Shown piece by piece: positions 1 to 15,100 of a DNA stretch of 15,100 nucleotides. The position numbers and the translations under genes are program-made. This DNA is from a virus (taxonomy: Duplodnaviria; Heunggongvirae; Uroviricota; Caudoviricetes). The first letter of the stretch is position 1. The number at the start of each line of letters is the position of its first letter. The notes below the pieces were generated by a model. That model made no database searches. It was not told the DNA's origin and was given only the letters and a program-made list of their open reading frames with translations. The stretch is from the IMG/VR virus record IMGVR_UViG_3300015174_000024; one strand, written 5' to 3'.

Positions 1-165
1 ATGGCAAAGCCGATCATCACGCTCAATGGCCTAAAAATCGTCATTATGTTGGGAATGCTGGTCATTATTCTCTGCGGTATCCGTTTTGCCGCCGAGATCA
101 TCGTGCCGTTTATTCTCGCATTATTTATTGCTGTTATATATAACTTATTTCGCATAACACATTGA
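1..165 (+). pseudogene. tqsA: 5' fragment of AI-2 exporter gene tqsA (ydgG); first ~46 codons intact, then the frame diverges at about nt 138 and stops at 163-165
   Basis: Translation [46 protein letters not shown] matches my memory of the E. coli TqsA N-terminus; the following codons (YNLFRITH, stop) do not, and AT-rich element-like DNA follows. Identification is from memory, not a search. Confidence 0.5.
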
Positions 166-250
166 TTTAATTAAATAATTAACACCGCAAAAAGTGCCAA
201 AAATCGCAAAATGACTACACCAGTGACTACACCGTTCGGTGCACTGTATG

Positions 251-281
251 AAACAACGTGGAACAAATAGACACAAGAAAT
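251..281. repeat. 10-bp-phased direct repeats AACAACgtgg / GAACAAAtag / CACAAGaaat, preceded by TGACTACACC x2 (212-233) and phased A-tracts (189-211)
   Basis: Read directly in the sequence. The same AACAACGTGGAACAA core recurs at 7715-7729 and a related phased array at 13790-13836. Confidence 0.6.
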
Positions 282-863: not shown

Positions 864-1145
864 TTACCGCCGCAACCGCTCCGGCTTCTTCCAGTGGTAC
901 GTTATTTTCTCCTTCTCCCGATACATCTCCACGCGGCGACGGTAGGCCAGCAACTCAAGAACTCTGGTTCGTATGTTGCGCATATCCACGCCATTAAGTT
1001 CTATACCATCACGGCGCATCACCTCAGCAACAACACGCGCATAGTTTTCGGCTGTCACGCTGTCCGGCTGCGTGGCCTGTTCGTCAGCCTGCTGGCTGAT
1101 TCCGGCAACGCGGCGGATTAATCCCGTTATTTCGGCTTCTGTCAT
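864..1145 (-). CDS. hypothetical protein, 93 aa, last gene of the packaging operon
   Basis: ATG at 1145 preceded by GAGGT Shine-Dalgarno, 13 nt downstream of the terL stop; no family recognised. Confidence 0.5.
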   Translation of the reverse strand: MTEAEITGLIRRVAGISQQADEQATQPDSVTAENYARVVAEVMRRDGIELNGVDMRNIRTRVLELLAYRRRVEMYREKEKITYHWKKPERLRR

Positions 1146-6341: not shown

Positions 6342-7499
6342 TTAATCGTCGTCCTGTGGCAGTTCCAGAATCTTGATCGCGTTCGAATCCACCACGCCAC
6401 CGCCTAAATATTTCTGCGTGAAAATTTTGATGAAGCCCGGCTCTGTGAGGTTGTCCGGTCTGGTGCGAACACCTGTTTCGTGATCAACAATGTAGTAACC
6501 GCGTTTGAAGTCACCCAGGGCAATAACGTTATCCGGCATAAACTCCAGATATTCGACCGGAAGGCCCAGTAACGTATCAGGATCACCCGCCTGTAAACGG
6601 TCGCGCCAGATGTAATCACCGTTCGCGTTCTTCACCTTCTGAAGTTTTGCCGCCGTCGTGGAGTTAACCACCCAGACCGCGTTTTTGCGGTATTTTTTAC
6701 GTAATGCAAATTTCAGGTCGATCAGCGGGTCCGCAGATGTCCACGCCAGAGATTCGGAAGGTTTAATTACCTGCAACGTACCAAAATCACGCTCTTTGTC
6801 GTTCTTCTCTGCACGGGGTACGGATAAAAAGCCTTTTGCTTTTTTGTCACCGTCGCCCACAACCAGATCGCTTTCTTCGGTTTCCGTGAAGTTGTCGCCA
6901 ATCTCGCCCGTCAGCCATGAAAGGATGTCCACATCGGAAAAATCCACGATTTCCTGCGTGGTGCGCGGGTACGCATAGACCGGATACAGCTTAATGCTCA
7001 CCTCGTTAATCTGCGGGGTGCTGGTCTGTTCGCGTGCCTTACCCTCTTCACCGTGGTTAACGGTCGCACCGCCAGCGGAAACAAGCTGCTTAAACTCGTT
7101 GCTGCTGATTTTCTTCACGGTACAGATGCGGCGCATGGTGGATTCATCCGTCAGCATTCGCATGATTTCGGTGTTCAGTTCGGGGATAACGGTATAACCA
7201 CCATCAGCGGGAACGCCTGTACTTAATGCGCGGGTTTCACCTGTCAGAATGTAGTGACGTAGTTCGGCTGGGTCAGTGGTCTGACTGCTTTTACCTGGCT
7301 TGCTGCGCTCTTCGTCTGCAATGGCTTCAAGGCGGGAAATGTCTTTATCGAGGGATTCAGCTTTAGCGCGTAATTCGTCAAATTTTGCGCCCTCAGCATC
7401 GTTAAGACTGCGGTTTTCTTTTTCCGCGTTCTCCAGCATGTCGCGCATCTGATTTTTAATGGCGGTTTTCTGCTGGCGTAATTCGATTATTCTCGGCAT
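6342..7499 (-). CDS. major capsid protein (HK97 fold) with N-terminal coiled-coil delta/scaffold domain
   Basis: 385 aa; charged coiled-coil N-terminal ~100 aa, then capsid-like body; followed by protease and portal. Confidence 0.9.
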   Translation of the reverse strand: MPRIIELRQQKTAIKNQMRDMLENAEKENRSLNDAEGAKFDELRAKAESLDKDISRLEAIADEERSKPGKSSQTTDPAELRHYILTGETRALSTGVPADGGYTVIPELNTEIMRMLTDESTMRRICTVKKISSNEFKQLVSAGGATVNHGEEGKAREQTSTPQINEVSIKLYPVYAYPRTTQEIVDFSDVDILSWLTGEIGDNFTETEESDLVVGDGDKKAKGFLSVPRAEKNDKERDFGTLQVIKPSESLAWTSADPLIDLKFALRKKYRKNAVWVVNSTTAAKLQKVKNANGDYIWRDRLQAGDPDTLLGLPVEYLEFMPDNVIALGDFKRGYYIVDHETGVRTRPDNLTEPGFIKIFTQKYLGGGVVDSNAIKILELPQDDD

Positions 7500-7536
7500 A
7501 AAAAAAGTCCTGGGGTTAAGTAAGGAACTCCAGGAC
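7500..7536 (-). promoter_or_regulatory. terminator-like stem-loop plus T7 run immediately upstream of the capsid start codon
   Basis: Minus strand: GTCCTGG - 16 nt loop - CCAGGAC - TTTTTTT - ATG. The 3' arm contains the only SD-like AGGA. Confidence 0.35.
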
Positions 7537-7713
7537 GCGGCAAAAACTCAACCGTTTTTCATAAGGAAATCAGCAATCGCACCGATCGTTTTCCCGCCTG
7601 GTAATGAATATTGGCGAGAACATTAACAGGCGGAAAAGTGGCCCCAGCGTCCTGGCACCACGGGCGAGAATAATCATGATTCAGTTCGGGTAAAATATGC
7701 CGATCCGCTCAGT

Positions 7714-7740
7714 GAACAACGTGGAACAACCACGAACAAA
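7714..7740. repeat. 10-bp-phased direct repeats GAACAACgtg / GAACAACcac / GAACAAAtaa, about 220 bp upstream of the capsid operon
   Basis: Read directly; shares the 15-mer AACAACGTGGAACAA with 252-266. Confidence 0.6.
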
Positions 7741-7754
7741 TAATTTACAAAACA

Positions 7755-7780
7755 TGACAAAAAGCCGGATTGCTCCGGCT
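7755..7780 (-). terminator. rho-independent terminator after the PerC-like gene
   Basis: Minus strand AGCCGGA-gcaa-TCCGGCT followed by TTTTTGT, 7 nt after the stop codon. Confidence 0.55.
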
Positions 7781-7786
7781 GTGTGA

Positions 7787-8059
7787 TTATCTGTCCTGGT
7801 AATTTCGCCATATTTCATTACCAGCACCATCCATACCCATTTCGGCATAAGTGCGATCGACCGCCTTTTTCAGGTCTCCGTAGTTATCCGGCGGCTCCGG
7901 TGGCCTCTGTGCCTTCCTGGAACATTCCAGCCGTCGCATCGTGATGTGATGCCGTTCCTTGTCTGTCTCCACCAGTTGCATGACTTCACCCCATCGCGCC
8001 GACGCTCTCCGGTAAAAGCCTTTCGCCTCCAGTTCTTCCGCTATGCGGTCATGTACCAT
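7787..8059 (-). CDS. PerC-family transcriptional regulator (Pch-like)
   Basis: About 90 aa; N-terminal AEELEAKGFYRRASARW resembles the PerC/Pch motif as I recall it. ATG 8059 has a GAGGGG SD; the ORF track starts at GTG 8068. Confidence 0.5.
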   Translation of the reverse strand: MVHDRIAEELEAKGFYRRASARWGEVMQLVETDKERHHITMRRLECSRKAQRPPEPPDNYGDLKKAVDRTYAEMGMDGAGNEIWRNYQDR

Positions 8060-8071
8060 CGTCCCCACCCC

Positions 8072-11919: not shown

Positions 11920-12136
11920 GGTGCACCTCCTGCACATCAGCCATGATAATTTTTCCGGCCTTATCCAGTGCCTGATCGGCTTTTAGCTGCACAAATGCTA
12001 AATAATGGAAGATGCATTCTGATTCTCTGGCTGCGTGTTTATGCGCCCTGTCAGCAATAACAGAAATATCAATAAGCGCGTGCATCAGCGTAGTGAGCGC
12101 GGCGGCGGCTGCGTCCGGTGTGGTTTTATTGCACAT
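11912..12136 (-). CDS. hypothetical protein, about 74 aa
   Basis: Start placed at ATG 12136 (MCNKTT...) with an AGGAGG SD; the ORF-track start at 12178 is further upstream. Confidence 0.5.
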   Translation of the reverse strand: MCNKTTPDAAAAALTTLMHALIDISVIADRAHKHAARESECIFHYLAFVQLKADQALDKAGKIIMADVQEVHHA

Positions 12137-12326
12137 GGCACACCTCCTGACGAATACGGGCGGCGAATACAGCAACACAACCGGACGGGCAACGGCTACG
12201 CGCTTCGCGTTCCGTCCAGGCGGTTACGTGGATGATTTGAGATTCTCCGGCACTTAGTGCCAGAAAACGCCACACAAAGGCAGTTTGTGTGTGCGCCAGA
12301 CGTGGGGTATGCTGTGTTCCAGCCAT
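12126..12326 (-). CDS. hypothetical protein, 66 aa, first gene of the leftward operon
   Basis: ATG 12326 preceded by AGGAG 8 nt upstream; it is the in-frame C-terminal part of an implausible 378-aa ORF-track call. Confidence 0.45.
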   Translation of the reverse strand: MAGTQHTPRLAHTQTAFVWRFLALSAGESQIIHVTAWTEREARSRCPSGCVAVFAARIRQEVCHVQ

Positions 12327-12435
12327 AATCGTTACTCCTGTTAACGGTTTGGTTAGACGCCCCGCTACTGCCGCAAACAGTTCGGGGCGTTGTCGTTTAC
12401 ATCCTCTTACTGAGGTGTGATTTAAATTAAATTCA

Positions 12436-12491
12436 ACTGAATCACAGGTCAAGTGTTTTTTGTGATTCTTTTTTGTGTATACTGAATCACA
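12436..12491. promoter_or_regulatory. divergent promoter/operator region: GAATCACA at 12439-12446 and 12484-12491, inverted copy TGTGATTC at 12461-12468
   Basis: Read directly. Inverted pair has a 14-bp spacer and overlaps a minus-strand TTGACC -35-like hexamer (revcomp of 12450-12455); the third copy abuts a plus-strand TATACT -10-like hexamer (12478-12483). Confidence 0.5.
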
Positions 12492-12513
12492 TCTTTTGTT
12501 TAGGAGAATGCAC

Positions 12514-12819
12514 ATGGCAAAAAACACTATCAACGACAAATCAAAACAGATTTCAATTCGTATCCCACATGATGCTTTTGATGGCATGGAATCCGTAAAA
12601 CTGGACGGCGAAAGCAACGCCGGATTCATAGTAACCGCCATGCGCGGGGAGATCGCCCGCCGCCAGGCAGAAGGAAGCAGTGAAAATCCTCTGATTTCTT
12701 CTCTCGATGCATTGGCGCAAGTGGAAAAAATTGGTATTAAAGCTACGGAAGAACTCGGGCAACTTATCGCCATCGCTCGTGAAGAACTACAGCGCCGCAA
12801 GGCCAAAGAATCAGAATAA
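12514..12819 (+). CDS. ribbon-helix-helix-like DNA-binding protein (candidate island repressor)
   Basis: AGGAG at 12502-12506, ATG at 12514; N-terminus KQISIRIPHDAFDGME...GFIVTAMRGEIARRQ fits a beta-strand/helix/helix pattern; divergently placed from the replication operon. Confidence 0.5.
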   Translation: MAKNTINDKSKQISIRIPHDAFDGMESVKLDGESNAGFIVTAMRGEIARRQAEGSSENPLISSLDALAQVEKIGIKATEELGQLIAIAREELQRRKAKESE

Positions 12820-12876
12820 TCACTATCAGCGCCGTGGTGTGAGGTATTACGGCGCATTGCTATGCAGGACAACACA

Positions 12877-13050
12877 ATGACCGATAAAGAATTGACCAAA
12901 ACATTATCACCGGCACGGAAAAGACGGCGCAGAAAGATAGAGCATGAATCAGAAAGATTCGCGCCATGTGCTTTTGCCCTTGAGCAATTCCTTAAAGAAT
13001 ACAGGGAAAAGCGCTCATTGCAGGTATGGCAACGAACTGAACCAGACTGA
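12877..13050 (+). CDS. small basic hypothetical protein (about 58 aa)
   Basis: Weak SD; Arg/Lys-rich (RKRRRRK); follows the RHH gene on the same strand. An alternative ATG lies at 12862. Confidence 0.3.
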   Translation: MTDKELTKTLSPARKRRRRKIEHESERFAPCAFALEQFLKEYREKRSLQVWQRTEPD

Positions 13051-13144
13051 TTGCATTGCCCACCAGCCTGATAGCGGCTATCATCCCCGTGCTTATGTTT
13101 GGGATCACACACACAAACGGCGCAGCGGGTTATCTGTTCAGAAA

Positions 13145-13174
13145 GGCGGCTACATTTCGGGGCCGCTTTTTTTA
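13145..13174 (+). terminator. rho-independent terminator ending the short rightward transcription unit
   Basis: GGCGGC ... GCCGC stem followed by TTTTTTT on the plus strand. Confidence 0.45.
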
Positions 13175-13319
13175 TGCCTGAAAAACCCCAATTTTGTGGT
13201 TTTCCAGTCTCACCAGGGCGAACGAATCCCCGCCCACGTTCTGGCGTATATTCAATCTTCATGGTTATAGCTCTGTGTTCAGATGATTGATGTGTGGCGG
13301 CTGCGTGCCGCCAGCGTGA

Positions 13320-13508
13320 TTAATGAACTGCCTTGCAGCTATCCTTCCAGGCCAGAACCTCGGATAAAGACCAGCCAACGGAACGACCGCTAAGTTTACG
13401 ACGTGATGGGAATTGTCCGGCCTTTTCCAGGCGGTAGCGGCATGAGCGGCTAAGGCCTGTTAGCTTTTCGCATTCTTTTTCACGTATAAACCGATCAGTG
13501 CTTAACAC
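13320..13508 (-). CDS. alpA: AlpA-family (Xis/Vis-like) regulator/excisionase
   Basis: 62 aa; LTGLSRS..YRL..G.FP....L....VGW...EV..W pattern; GTG start with AAGGGGG SD; located next to int. Confidence 0.8.
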   Translation of the reverse strand: MLSTDRFIREKECEKLTGLSRSCRYRLEKAGQFPSRRKLSGRSVGWSLSEVLAWKDSCKAVH

Positions 13509-13789
13509 TATTGCCCCCTTTCGTTTCTTAAAGAGTTATTTCGTGTTCTATTGCGTTGGGATGTGTCTGATTGTGTCAGGATGATTCAGAGTTGGCAAAT
13601 GTTGAGGTCGCATGGTTTACAGAAAGAGGAATAATCAGGATAAAATCATTTAAATTCATGTTAATACAAAGGCATAAAATATTGTTTCATGCCTTTTTTC
13701 TCGCTATTTAAAGAGTGATTCGCTAGTGTATAAAAAACCAGTAACACATTAAAAATCAGCTACTTATAAATCCGTACACTTTTTCGCCT

Positions 13790-13836
13790 CTTGTTCGTAG
13801 TTGTTCCGCATTGTTGCTCATTGTTGCACGTTGTAT
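13790..13836. repeat. five 10-bp-phased repeats (plus strand TTGTTcgtag/TTGTTccgca/TTGTTgctca/TTGTTgcacg/TTGTAtctgt; minus strand GAACAA-type) just 3' of int
   Basis: Read directly; related to the GAACAA arrays at 251-281 and 7714-7740 but in opposite orientation. Confidence 0.6.
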
Positions 13837-13882
13837 CTGTTCGCATATCCAGCATGCGCATACTGAAAAAACACGAAAAAAA

Positions 13883-15100
13883 TTATTTTCTTCTGGCTAC
13901 TGGTAGCGTGGTTACGTTTTCATGTGTTCCCGCCAGTATCCCTAACCGCTCCGTCCACATATCCAGCGCATTGCGTTTAGCATCCAGATAACGGGAATGA
14001 TTATAAACTCGCTGCATTCCTGGCATCTGGTGGCCTGTAAGCTGCTCCACGACATGCGGATCAACGCCTAAATCGTTCAGCATGGTTGTAAAGGTGCGCC
14101 GGATGTCATGCAGTGACCAGTGAGGATGATTAAGCCTCCTGTGCGCTAATCTTCCATACTGCGATACGCTGGCCTCCTGTTTCACTTCCCCCAGCAATAA
14201 GCCCGTGTGCCTGTTCTGCTCCACCAGCTGCGTGACGAACGGCAGGATCGCTTCCGGTATGGGCCGGAATATTGCGACCTTCGTTTTGCTGTGCTCCTTC
14301 GGAACGGTCCATAGCATTTCCGTAAAATCCCACTCCCCGATCTCCGATAACCTCAGTTCTACCGTTCTGGCTCCGAAGACAATCAGGAGGCGGATTAACG
14401 CGACGTAGTAAGGGGAGAATATTTTTTTGTCCAGTGCCTGCAATAATTCGCCAAGTTCTTTGTTACTTAAGACACGTTCGCTTATATCCGGTTTTTTCCC
14501 AACGTCCGCCACGTTCAGATCGTCCAGAACGTTGCTGATTGCATAGCGCCGCCTACGGCAGAACTTAAGCGCCTGTTTGCACGCCTGTAGCACGAATCCG
14601 GCAGTAACAGGCGTTCGCTTTGCCACCTGGTCAAAACAGGCCAGCCAGTGCCGTAGCTCGCATTTATCCAGCGGCATAGCACCAATCTGCTGTATTACGT
14701 GATTATTAAGTCGCCTTTTCAGGGCGATATAATCCACGCGGTTTTCCTTTACGTAATACTCAAGCCAGTAGGTGAGCGCATCGCCAACCGTTACGGGCTT
14801 TAACGCTTCCTGTACGGTGTAATTCATCTCATGACGTGGATTTTTCCCCTCAGCCAGCCATGTGCGACACTGTGCGGCTTTTTCCCTGGCTGCTTTCAGG
14901 CTCAGATCAGGATAACTTCCCAGCTTAATGCGTTCGGGTCGTGTCTCCCTTCCCGTTCCGGCCCTGTATGTGAAATACCAGGTCAATTTCCCTGATGTTA
15001 AATATTTCACGCTCAGGTTTCCGCCATCACTATAAAACGTGTTTTTCTCCGCTGGCTTACCATGAAGTTTCCTTAGCAAGGTATCGCTCAGTTTGTTCAT
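13883..15100 (-). CDS. int: tyrosine integrase, P4-like with N-terminal arm-binding domain
   Basis: 405 aa; HDIRRTF, LTGHQ and C-terminal VYNHSRY catalytic-Tyr motifs; the ATG is the last 3 nt of the window. Confidence 0.9.
   Translation of the reverse strand: MNKLSDTLLRKLHGKPAEKNTFYSDGGNLSVKYLTSGKLTWYFTYRAGTGRETRPERIKLGSYPDLSLKAAREKAAQCRTWLAEGKNPRHEMNYTVQEALKPVTVGDALTYWLEYYVKENRVDYIALKRRLNNHVIQQIGAMPLDKCELRHWLACFDQVAKRTPVTAGFVLQACKQALKFCRRRRYAISNVLDDLNVADVGKKPDISERVLSNKELGELLQALDKKIFSPYYVALIRLLIVFGARTVELRLSEIGEWDFTEMLWTVPKEHSKTKVAIFRPIPEAILPFVTQLVEQNRHTGLLLGEVKQEASVSQYGRLAHRRLNHPHWSLHDIRRTFTTMLNDLGVDPHVVEQLTGHQMPGMQRVYNHSRYLDAKRNALDMWTERLGILAGTHENVTTLPVARRK

What the first reader, a model, noticed from the sequence alone, without database searches (positions are those of the whole stretch)
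7714..7740. The same phased GAACAA motif recurs upstream of the capsid operon
AACAACGTGGAACAA is shared exactly between 252-266 and 7715-7729, and both loci continue with further GAACAA units at helical phase. The second locus sits in the 287-bp gap between the PerC-like gene terminator and the capsid gene, where the head-operon promoter must lie. A single DNA-binding protein (AlpA is the obvious candidate, by analogy with P4 Vis acting at both att and a promoter) may couple excision to capsid-gene expression. A third, inverted array lies 3' of int (13790-13836).
Basis: inference. Interest (0 to 1): 0.6.

Follow-up and report, generated by a model that had tools for sequence, protein, structure and literature searches.

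The report
Excisionase-type sites at satellite capsid promoter
A phage satellite inserted in E. coli tqsA carries the same helically phased GAACAA repeats beside its integration-site arms, upstream of its master regulator alpA and just upstream of its capsid-operon promoter, so one small DNA-binding protein (most likely the excisionase/activator AlpA) probably ties cutting-out of the element to making its own capsids.

Summary
The window is a capsid-forming PICI (cf-PICI) inserted in tqsA. The 10-bp-phased GAACAA/TTGTTC units form three arrays in the window and a fourth on the int-proximal att arm just outside it.

The array at 7714-7760 has five units. It lies about -54 to -100 from a promoter that I predict from conservation across genera: -35 at 7694-7689, -10 at 7672-7667, and a conserved leader hairpin at the start of the transcript.

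In cf-PICIs of about 20 genera, the roughly 55-65 bp cassette between a conserved TTGTAAAT anchor and the -10 changes with the int/excisionase module. It does not follow the capsid phylogeny. AlpA-type islands carry TGTTC units. HTH_17-type islands carry TACyC units, and those same units recur, in the same order, in their att arms.

AlpA, a winged-helix excisionase and known autoactivator, is the best candidate. Binding, the sign of regulation and the transcription start site are not tested, Int is not excluded, and there are mosaic exceptions.

I classify it as a new member of the known class of excisionases that also regulate transcription.

The parts
129..137 (.). att core (TGCTGTTAT) at the tqsA/island junction, on the int-distal side
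   Evidence: The same 8-9 bp occur at the other junction in FORC_069 (L001 18348-18355). tqsA is annotated as split there.
211..233 (+). Two (A/G)TGACTACACC repeats, the likely Int arm-type sites of this att arm
   Evidence: Found. The same pair lies on the int-proximal arm (L001 18196-18219). The motif changes with the Int subfamily: GGTGTATCA in L003/L116, GGTATCC in the HTH_17 class.
251..276 (-). att-arm array of three phased units (AAACAA, GAACAA, ACACAA on the + strand), containing the shared 15-mer
   Evidence: An identical module is present in classical PICIs that have the same Int/AlpA (L142).
7763..7780 (-). Intrinsic-terminator-like hairpin that ends the perC/replication transcription unit
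   Evidence: The T-run overlaps the first weak unit of the array.
7714..7760 (-). Capsid-upstream array. It reads TTGTCA, TTGTAA (part of the conserved anchor TTGTAAATTAT, 7750-7740), then TTGTTC three times in the direction of capsid transcription, with spacings of 10, 11, 10 and 10 bp. It lies about -100 to -54 from the predicted start.
   Evidence: Anchor plus array are about 95% conserved in E. coli capsid modules whose flanks cannot be aligned. Units vary less than spacers.
7667..7694 (-). Predicted sigma-70 promoter of the capsid/packaging operon: -35 TTTACC (7694-7689), 16-nt spacer, -10 TATTCT (7672-7667)
   Evidence: It aligns position for position with TTTACA-16-TATCTT in other genera, which the tool calls as a promoter in L122. 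The anchor-to-leader distance is 78-81 nt in 34 of 35 lineages. It falls below the tool's threshold in the window itself.
7500..7661 (-). Structured 5' leader of the capsid mRNA, with a 5' hairpin GTGGTGCCAG-GACG-CTGGGGCCAC at 7661-7638
   Evidence: There are three helices, and 18 of 28 predicted pairs show compensatory changes across 25 lineages. No Rfam family matches.
6342..7499 (-). Major capsid gene, the first gene of the capsid-protease-portal-connector-HNH-terS-terL operon
   Evidence: Pfam Phage_capsid, E = 1.5e-61. RefSeq annotation of the same island.
13791..13836 (+). Array in the int-alpA spacer: five phased units (TTGTTC, TTGTTC, TTGTTG, TTGTTG, TTGTAT on the + strand), inverted relative to the other arrays
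   Evidence: In six lineages the AACAA columns are invariant while the spacers vary. Some lineages share a 25-mer with the capsid array (L015, L029, L143).
13320..13508 (-). alpA, a 62-aa winged-helix excisionase/regulator and the candidate binder
   Evidence: PF05930, E = 1.9e-17. PHROG 'excisionase and transcriptional regulator'. Homologue of PDB 8C3T.
13883..15100 (-). P4-type tyrosine integrase with an N-terminal arm-DNA-binding domain. The RefSeq start codon is 12 nt beyond the window end.
   Evidence: Arm-DNA-bind_3 and Phage_integrase domains. Annotation.

Best explanation
The GAACAA repeats at 7714-7760 are the upstream operator of the capsid/packaging-operon promoter of a capsid-forming PICI. 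They read TTGTTC in the direction of capsid transcription.

They are the same kind of site as the phased arrays that sit next to the Int arm-type sites on both att arms and in the int-alpA spacer.

The most likely binder is the island's 62-aa winged-helix recombination directionality factor (RDF) AlpA. It would polymerise head-to-tail with one protomer per helical turn. Once a helper phage switches alpA on, the same protein would do three things:
- help Int excise the island, and probably modulate the int promoter, through the att-arm arrays;
- feed back on its own expression through the int-alpA array;
- activate the weak sigma-70 capsid promoter from about -54 to -100.

Shown here: the anatomy, the conservation, the register with the promoter, and the covariation with the int/RDF module. 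Inferred: the identity of the binder, that the effect is activation rather than repression, and the transcription start.
For: 1. The arrays are non-random and phased.

2. There are four arrays per island. Both att arms carry a composite of [GTGACTACACC x2][AACAA x3-4].

3. In the int-alpA spacer the AACAA columns are invariant across six lineages while the spacers diverge. Within E. coli capsid-upstream sequences, units carry 0.53 variants per position, spacers 1.65 and the rest of the region 1.07.

4. The anchor plus array is conserved at about 91-94% over about 55 bp between E. coli capsid modules whose flanks do not align and whose capsids are 63-75% identical.

5. The promoter is placed by conservation. 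The anchor-to-leader distance is 78-81 nt in 34 of 35 lineages, with -35 TTTACx, a 16-nt spacer and -10 TATCTT.

6. Covariation with the int/RDF module:
- The roughly 55-65 bp cassette between anchor and -10 follows the int/RDF module class. TACyC units occur in 7 of 8 HTH_17-class islands and in 3 of 28 AlpA-class islands (uncorrected Fisher p = 1e-4).
- The classes are interleaved on the capsid tree.
- Replication modules are shared across classes.
- Sister pairs differ only in the cassette: L122 versus L125, and L128/L140 versus L124/L129.

7. There is an independent replicate in HTH_17-class islands. The att-arm array and the capsid array share units, order and spacing. In L129 the arm reads TACCC-TACTC-TACCG and the capsid array TACCC-TACTC-TACCC; L131 behaves likewise.

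8. The second att repeat family changes with the Int subfamily, which fits the Int arm-type sites and leaves the phased arrays for the RDF.

9. AlpA is a PF05930 winged-helix protein. Published work:
- AlpA activates its own promoter and downstream genes, and is sufficient for excision and replication of EcCICFT073 (PMC6092414).
- An alpA mutation abolishes cf-PICI induction and transfer (bioRxiv 10.1101/2022.09.08.507074).
- AlpA alone triggers excision in PICMIs (PMC10803314).
- Winged-helix RDFs form filaments with one DNA turn per protomer and bind both attP and promoters (PMC11963761).
- P4 Vis binds attP and regulates late promoters and int (PMC2603039, PMC7286903).
Against: - No binding or expression data exist for these sites.
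- Int and AlpA alleles co-vary in every contrast, so comparison alone cannot separate them.
- There are mosaic exceptions. L003 (AlpA 49% identical, no clear att arrays) keeps GAACAA x3 at the capsid. L141 (AlpA class) has TACyC units, and L113 (HTH_17 class) has the Xenorhabdus-type units. All Xenorhabdus islands share one cassette regardless of module.
- The anchor and the first unit are conserved in all classes, so part of the element must be read by something common to all of them.
- Classical PICIs with the same Int/AlpA have no array at their morphogenesis genes.
- In several genera the -35 is near consensus, which fits a strictly activator-dependent promoter less well.
- Both att arms carry arrays. 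I recall RDF sites being confined to one arm in lambda, but I did not check this.
- The int-alpA array lies about 130-190 bp from the best alpA promoter candidate and is inverted.
- Fillol-Salom et al. saw no AlpA effect on int expression (PMC6092414).
Confidence: 0.6

Rival explanations
1. The phased GAACAA arrays are arm-type sites for the N-terminal DNA-binding domain of the integrase, and GTGACTACACC would then be the RDF or host-factor site. Int rather than AlpA would occupy the capsid-upstream and int-alpA arrays.
For: Int has an Arm-DNA-bind_3 domain. The arrays lie on both att arms, as arm-type sites do. Int class co-varies with the cassette just as the RDF class does.
Against: The other repeat family (GGTGTAGTCA, GGTGTATCA, GGTGGGGTAC, GGTATCC) changes with the Int subfamily, whereas TGTTC-type units persist across Ints that are only 47-68% identical. 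I know of no precedent for an integrase arm domain acting at a structural-gene promoter. AlpA alone activates PalpA in trans (PMC6092414), and the only array near alpA is this one.
Confidence: 0.1
2. Two different things that look alike. AlpA binds the att-arm and int-alpA arrays. The capsid-upstream element is an ancestral cf-PICI promoter module read by another factor: a host protein, a helper-phage late regulator, another island protein, or RNA polymerase alpha-CTD on phased or curved DNA.
For: The anchor TTGTAAAT and phased TGT-containing units are conserved upstream of the capsid gene in about 20 genera, whatever the RDF. L003, L141, L113 and all Xenorhabdus islands keep a cassette that does not match their module. 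Classical PICIs with the same AlpA lack such a site at their packaging genes.
Against: The cassette swaps with the int/RDF module between otherwise near-identical neighbours. In two independent motif systems the capsid units copy the att-arm units, including spacers or unit order: a 15-mer and a 25-mer in E. coli, and TACCC-TACTC-TACCx in L129. No similarity to any of 50,697 phage records was found.
Confidence: 0.17
3. The repeats are a non-functional by-product: a chance cluster, low-complexity sequence, or scars of recombination or gene conversion at module junctions.
For: The array lies exactly at a mosaic junction; sequence upstream of the anchor differs between islands. Short identical stretches could be copied by recombination.
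Against: 0 of 200 shuffles reach the observed counts. There are only 4 weak hits in 1.33 Mb of control sequence. Conservation of the units is periodic, with variable spacers. The register with the promoter is fixed across genera.
Confidence: 0.03

Closest known systems
Bacteriophage P4 Vis (AlpA-family excisionase/regulator)
   Same: A small HTH excisionase of a satellite with a P4-type integrase. It binds attP and also regulates promoters, namely the late promoter and int (PMC2603039 and PMC7286903, citing Polo 1996, Cali 2004 and Piazzolla 2006). In both cases the int promoter overlaps the att arm.
   Different: The PICI authors describe Vis as only remotely related to PICI AlpA (PMC6092414). 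The target here is the promoter of a complete capsid/packaging operon, which P4 lacks. The site sequences were not compared. Vis is reported mainly as a repressor of PLE and int, whereas activation is proposed here.
Filament-forming winged-helix RDFs: lambda Xis, P2 Cox, RdfS of ICEMlSymR7A, and BldC as a structural analogue
   Same: Head-to-tail oligomers with about one protomer per DNA turn on direct repeats. They have dual roles at attP and at promoters (PMC11963761).
   Different: RdfS shows no clear sequence motif. Here the unit is a sharp hexamer with 10-bp spacing. The arrays occur on both att arms and at a structural-operon promoter about 6 kb away.
AlpA-driven induction of Gram-negative PICIs (EcCICFT073, EcCIEDL933, EcCIMP1)
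   Same: The same island family and gene order: int-alpA-primase, plus a capsid module in cf-PICIs. AlpA is a positive autoregulator and is required for induction and transfer (PMC6092414; bioRxiv 10.1101/2022.09.08.507074; PMC11773190).
   Different: None of the papers I could search defines the AlpA operator or the capsid-operon promoter. The sites proposed here would supply both.
Pseudomonas aeruginosa AlpA / lambdoid Q antitermination
   Same: The name, and the presence of a promoter-linked DNA element and hairpins near the promoter.
   Different: Pae AlpA has its HTH around residues 128-142 and a 21Q-like fold. It binds between -35 and -10 and needs a sigma-dependent pause (PMC7969949, PMC9371919). 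The protein here has 62 aa, and the sites lie upstream of -35. I rejected this as a model.

Membership tests
Capsid-forming PICI (cf-PICI, EcCIEDL933 type) | int + alpA + primase/replication genes, followed by capsid, protease, portal, connectors, HNH, terS and terL, with no tail or lysis genes; about 15 kb, in a dedicated att site | tested here: met
   Pfam hits and the RefSeq annotation of the same island in FORC_069. The island is inserted in tqsA with a short core repeat.
AlpA / winged-helix excisionase (RDF) family - the candidate protein | A small (about 60-90 aa) protein matching PF05930/HTH_17, encoded next to a tyrosine integrase | tested here: met
   PF05930 E = 1.9e-17. PHROG 2790 'excisionase and transcriptional regulator'. 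PDB 8C3T 'AlpA family phage regulatory protein' E = 1e-6. The gene lies 375 bp downstream of int.
RDF operator array (Xis/Cox/Vis type) | Three or more direct repeats spaced about one helical turn apart, in an att arm beside the Int arm-type sites | tested here: met
   The spacing is 10-11 bp. The arrays lie 17 bp (window 251-276) and about 8 bp (L001 18227-18261) from the paired GTGACTACACC repeats.
RDF operator array (Xis/Cox/Vis type) | The site sequence changes together with the cognate RDF | tested here: met
   TGTTC units occur with AlpA-class modules and TACyC units with HTH_17-class modules, at both the att arm and the capsid promoter. Exceptions: L003, L141 and L113. Int co-varies as well.
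RDF operator array (Xis/Cox/Vis type) | The RDF physically binds the repeats and is needed for excision through them | not testable with these tools
   Requires EMSA or footprinting, and excision assays with mutated arrays.
Activator-dependent sigma-70 promoter with upstream (class I-like) sites | -35/-10 hexamers at a conserved position, with sites upstream of -35 on one face of the helix | tested here: inconclusive
   The hexamers are conserved in register across genera and are called by the tool in L122. The window's own hexamers (TTTACC-16-TATTCT, 8 of 12 matches) fall below the tool's threshold. No transcription start or activation data exist.
Integrase arm-type sites | A repeat family present on both att arms whose sequence follows the Int arm-binding domain | tested here: inconclusive
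   Both repeat families are on both arms.
Q / Pae-AlpA antiterminator loading site | A binding element between -35 and -10, a sigma-dependent pause and a downstream terminator; the protein has an RNA-exit-channel ring | tested here: not met
   The sites are upstream of -35. AlpA here has 62 aa and only the wHTH domain, unlike the Pae protein (PMC9371919). In hairpin-class islands the hairpin lies upstream of the -10, not in the transcript.

The most novel reading that the evidence does not exclude
cf-PICIs across Enterobacterales carry a swappable operator cassette of about 55-65 bp in an otherwise conserved capsid-operon promoter, and this cassette is matched to the island's own excisionase. 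One winged-helix RDF would then license excision, its own synthesis and capsid production, independently of the helper phage's late regulators. When int/RDF modules are exchanged between islands, the cassette is exchanged or re-tuned with them. This would define the AlpA operator, (G)AACAA at 10-bp phasing, and give a rule for predicting regulatory compatibility between satellite modules.
Probability: 0.45. Interest if true: 0.65.

Novelty: new member of a known kind. Interest (0 to 1): 0.52.

Why it matters
Published work states that AlpA switches Gram-negative PICIs on. In the papers I could search, neither its DNA target nor the control of the cf-PICI capsid/packaging operon is described.

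The sites and promoter mapped here turn that gap into a simple experiment: AlpA supplied in trans, reporter fusions, and unit mutations or cassette swaps.

They also explain how a satellite that builds its own capsids could couple capsid synthesis to excision. The cassette/RDF covariation gives a sequence rule for judging whether mosaic satellites are internally compatible. That would be useful for annotating satellites and for engineering PICI-based delivery vehicles.

Tried and rejected
- **Pseudomonas AlpA/Q-type antitermination.** Rejected. That protein has a different architecture, its site lies between -35 and -10, and here the hairpins lie upstream of the -10 or form the 5' leader.
- **Mimicry of helper-phage late promoters.** blastn of 7660-7790 against 50,697 phage records found nothing.
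- **Known RNA family in the gap.** Rfam gave no match at the gathering threshold or at E <= 1.
- **Host response-regulator boxes (OmpR, PhoP, PhoB, ArcA, CpxR), IHF and LexA for the window array.** I considered these from memory only. The unit sequence or the 10- versus 11-bp spacing does not fit. No tool test was run.
- **cos/pac site or replication origin.** Judged unlikely by position. The HNH-terS gap and the primase-downstream gap are the usual places, and the element is locked in register with a promoter.
- **Another conserved island protein as binder.** No gene between the replication and capsid modules is shared by all islands. PHROG and Pfam gave no DNA-binding candidates among the small ORFs.
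- **Recurrence of capsid-upstream units elsewhere in islands of other genera.** A search allowing 10 mismatches in 30 nt found recurrence only in the E. coli/Shigella type. The match in HTH_17 islands became visible only when units were compared in register.
- **Separating Int from RDF using islands with unrelated Ints.** Xenorhabdus was uninformative, because all Xenorhabdus islands share one cassette.

Full report
**What the window is**

All major genes are on the minus strand. They are:
- a P4-type integrase (13883-15100);
- a 62-aa AlpA-family protein (13320-13508);
- a DUF4222 protein and a D5-type primase;
- SSB and a PerC-family protein (7787-8068);
- then, after a 287-bp gap, the major capsid gene (6342-7499), followed by protease, portal, connectors, HNH, terS and terL.

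RefSeq annotates the same island in E. coli FORC_069 in this way. There it splits tqsA. This is the capsid-forming PICI (cf-PICI) architecture of EcCIEDL933 (bioRxiv 10.1101/2022.09.08.507074).

**The observation**

The 15-mer AACAACGTGGAACAA is exact at 252-266 and 7715-7729. With up to 3 mismatches it has 7 matches, all within three loci, against 0.56 expected. GAACAA-N4-GAACAA has 9 matches against 1.72 expected. No shuffle reaches either count. GAACAA alone is not enriched, so the signal is the 10-bp phasing.

The capsid-upstream array has five units. Read in the direction of capsid transcription it is TTGTCA-N4-TTGTAA-N5-TTGTTC-N4-TTGTTC-N4-TTGTTC, at 7760-7714. The array 3' of int has five units (13791-13836) and is inverted.

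With the same strict definition, 1.33 Mb of related loci from other genera gave only four weak hits, a number consistent with chance.

**The att context**

Fetching the flank from FORC_069 showed that the int-proximal arm, just outside the window, carries the same composite as the int-distal arm inside the window. Each has two GTGACTACACC repeats followed by three or four phased AACAA units. The core is (T)GCTGTTAT. The island therefore has four arrays.

Classical PICIs that have the same Int/AlpA module but no capsid operon have three arrays: both att arms and the int-alpA spacer. They have none at their morphogenesis genes (L142).

In six lineages of the int-alpA spacer, an alignment made without reference to the motif shows invariant AACAA columns separated by variable spacers. 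Some lineages share a 25-mer, AACAACGTGGAACAACCACGAACAA, between that array and the capsid array.

**The capsid-upstream element is a promoter module**

About 443 of 5,426 complete E. coli genomes carry this intergenic region. In E. coli cf-PICIs with diverged capsid modules (63-75% aa identity; L002, L003), only about 55 bp survives at 91-94% identity. That stretch is the anchor TTGTAAATTAT plus the three TTGTTC units. The flanks cannot be aligned.

Across 80 loci from about 20 genera the same layout recurs:
- the anchor TTGTAAAT(W)(W)T;
- three phased units;
- then either an A-tract plus a -35-like TTTAC(A/T/C), or a covarying hairpin with a T-run;
- a -10 of TATCTT, TATGTT or TATTCT;
- a conserved hairpin (GTGGCACTCA-GACG-TGAGCCGCCAC) where the transcript should begin.

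The anchor-to-hairpin distance is 78-81 nt in 34 of 35 distinct lineages. The scanning tool calls TTTACA-16-TATCTT as a promoter in L122 at exactly this place.

In L051/L120 the upstream gene is divergent, so a promoter must lie in this region.

In the window the homologous hexamers are TTTACC (7694-7689) and TATTCT (7672-7667). This pair matches 8 of 12 consensus positions, which is below the tool's threshold. The hairpin is at 7661-7638. That places the five units at roughly -54 to -100.

**Covariation, the main new evidence**

I classed islands by their excisionase-type gene: AlpA similar to the window or L002, AlpA similar to L003, or an HTH_17 protein with an L051-type Int.

The 30-nt unit region has TACyC units in 7 of 8 HTH_17 islands and in 3 of 28 AlpA islands (uncorrected Fisher p = 1e-4). 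The classes are interleaved on the capsid tree. The 4-6 kb between the RDF gene and the anchor is shared across classes; for example, 70% of it aligns between L125 and L122.

Pairwise alignments show what differs:
- L122 (AlpA) and L125 (HTH_17) are identical at the anchor and from the -10 onward. They are unrelated in the roughly 65 bp between.
- L129 (HTH_17) and L140 (AlpA) share even the upstream gene. They differ in only about 55 bp.

In HTH_17 islands the att arm upstream of int carries phased arrays with the same units, in the same order and with the same spacing, as the capsid cassette:
- L129: arm TACCC-TACTC-TACCG, capsid TACCC-TACTC-TACCC.
- L131: arm TACCT-TACTC-TACTT, capsid TACCT-TACTC-TACTC.

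This repeats the window's observation independently, with a different motif. A second repeat family in the arms changes with the Int subfamily (GGTGTAGTCA, GGTGTATCA, GGTGGGGTAC, GGTATCC). It is the better candidate for the Int arm-type sites.

**Which protein**

The cassette follows the int/RDF module. In the window that module contains only int and alpA.

AlpA is a PF05930 winged-helix protein. Proteins of this class polymerise head-to-tail with one DNA turn per protomer and often act at both attP and promoters (PMC11963761; P4 Vis as summarised in PMC2603039 and PMC7286903). PICI AlpA activates its own promoter and downstream genes, and is sufficient for excision and replication (PMC6092414). 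It is required for cf-PICI induction and transfer (bioRxiv 10.1101/2022.09.08.507074). In PICMIs it acts as the excision trigger (PMC10803314).

I therefore assign the arrays to AlpA with a confidence of about 0.6.

The recognition helices of the window, L002 and L003 proteins are similar (SRSCRY, CRTTRY, SRSTRF). An L003-like AlpA in Erwinia (L118) has a nine-unit TGTTC array upstream of its gene. The L003 mosaic may therefore still be compatible.

**Weaknesses**

- Nothing here demonstrates binding, activation or the transcription start.
- Int co-varies with the RDF in every contrast.
- There are exceptions: L141, L113 and all Xenorhabdus islands.
- The anchor and first unit are common to all classes.
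- Some lineages have a near-consensus -35.
- The int-alpA array is inverted and lies about 130-190 bp from the best alpA promoter candidate, whose -10 (TATCCT/TATTCT) is invariant in six lineages. Its role is unexplained; autoregulation, a roadblock to int read-through, or bridging to the att arm are all possible.
- Fillol-Salom et al. saw no AlpA effect on int expression (PMC6092414).

**Comparison and novelty**

Mechanistically this resembles P4 Vis, P2 Cox and RdfS, which are excisionases that also regulate transcription. The protein meets the family definition. The sites meet the architectural features of RDF operators, and the covariation test is met with exceptions. Binding cannot be tested here. 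The Pseudomonas AlpA/Q antiterminator model was tested and does not fit.

I found no paper that defines the PICI AlpA operator or the cf-PICI capsid promoter. The library is limited, so this is not proof that none exists.

Verdict: a real, functional-looking cis-element. It is a new member of a known kind. Its most interesting aspect is the modular operator cassette matched to the excisionase.

Noticed in passing
window 7500-7661 (minus strand): The capsid mRNA leader (about 165 nt here, 120-150 nt in other genera) is conserved and structured. It has a 5' hairpin with a GACG loop, a long covarying helix (GGCCGTTTAA...TTAAACGGCC type), and a helix pairing CTGGTTTC with GAAACCAC just before the ATG. 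In the window an AGGA Shine-Dalgarno-like sequence lies inside a hairpin that is followed by seven T residues. 18 of 28 predicted pairs show compensatory changes. No Rfam family matches. This may be a translational or stability control element.
   Followed up: partly
L141 about 2290-2310; also L132, L138, L066, L073 and L100, upstream of int: Several cf-PICIs of other genera have aCTGTAyATTGTTCCAGTg upstream of int. This fits the CTG-N10-CAG LexA-box core as I recall it, which would suggest SOS control of int in those islands. The window-type island lacks it.
   Followed up: no
window 13850-13865: A 16-bp near-perfect palindrome, CAGCATGCGCATACTG (perfect CAGTATGCGCATACTG in sister lineages), lies between the int stop codon and the array. 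It is conserved in four of the six aligned lineages. Its function is unknown.
   Followed up: no
window 13668-13696: A conserved hairpin lies between the array and the alpA promoter candidates. Its T-run is on the + strand, so it would terminate transcription running antisense through alpA, for example from the + strand YlcI/YnfO-family gene at 12475-12819. It directly abuts the -35 of the alpA promoter candidate. This resembles the hairpin-plus-T-run cassette of many capsid promoters.
   Followed up: no
window 7719-7734: The two spacers that flank the central unit are reverse complements of each other (CGTGG ... CCACG). The array therefore contains a small dyad, CGTGG-AACAA-CCACG. The same 25-mer is found in the int-alpA array of some lineages.
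   Followed up: no
window 12126-13262: This stretch is a patchwork of Icd-like pseudogene fragments. The otherwise near-identical FORC_069 island is about 560 bp longer here, so it is an indel-prone region between alpA and the replication genes.
   Followed up: no
L118 2334-2473: In an Erwinia cf-PICI, the region upstream of alpA holds five phased TTTTGCA repeats, followed directly by nine phased T(T/C)GT(T)C units. This is the largest array seen.
   Followed up: partly
L051/L120 2029-2247: An Ogr/Delta-type zinc-finger gene lies immediately outside the tRNA-side att of this cf-PICI. The island may therefore sit next to a P2-like prophage.
   Followed up: no
window 864-1145 (minus strand): The last gene before the int-distal att arm (93 aa, PHROG 1561, function unknown) is conserved in both cf-PICIs and classical PICIs with this att module.
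   Followed up: no
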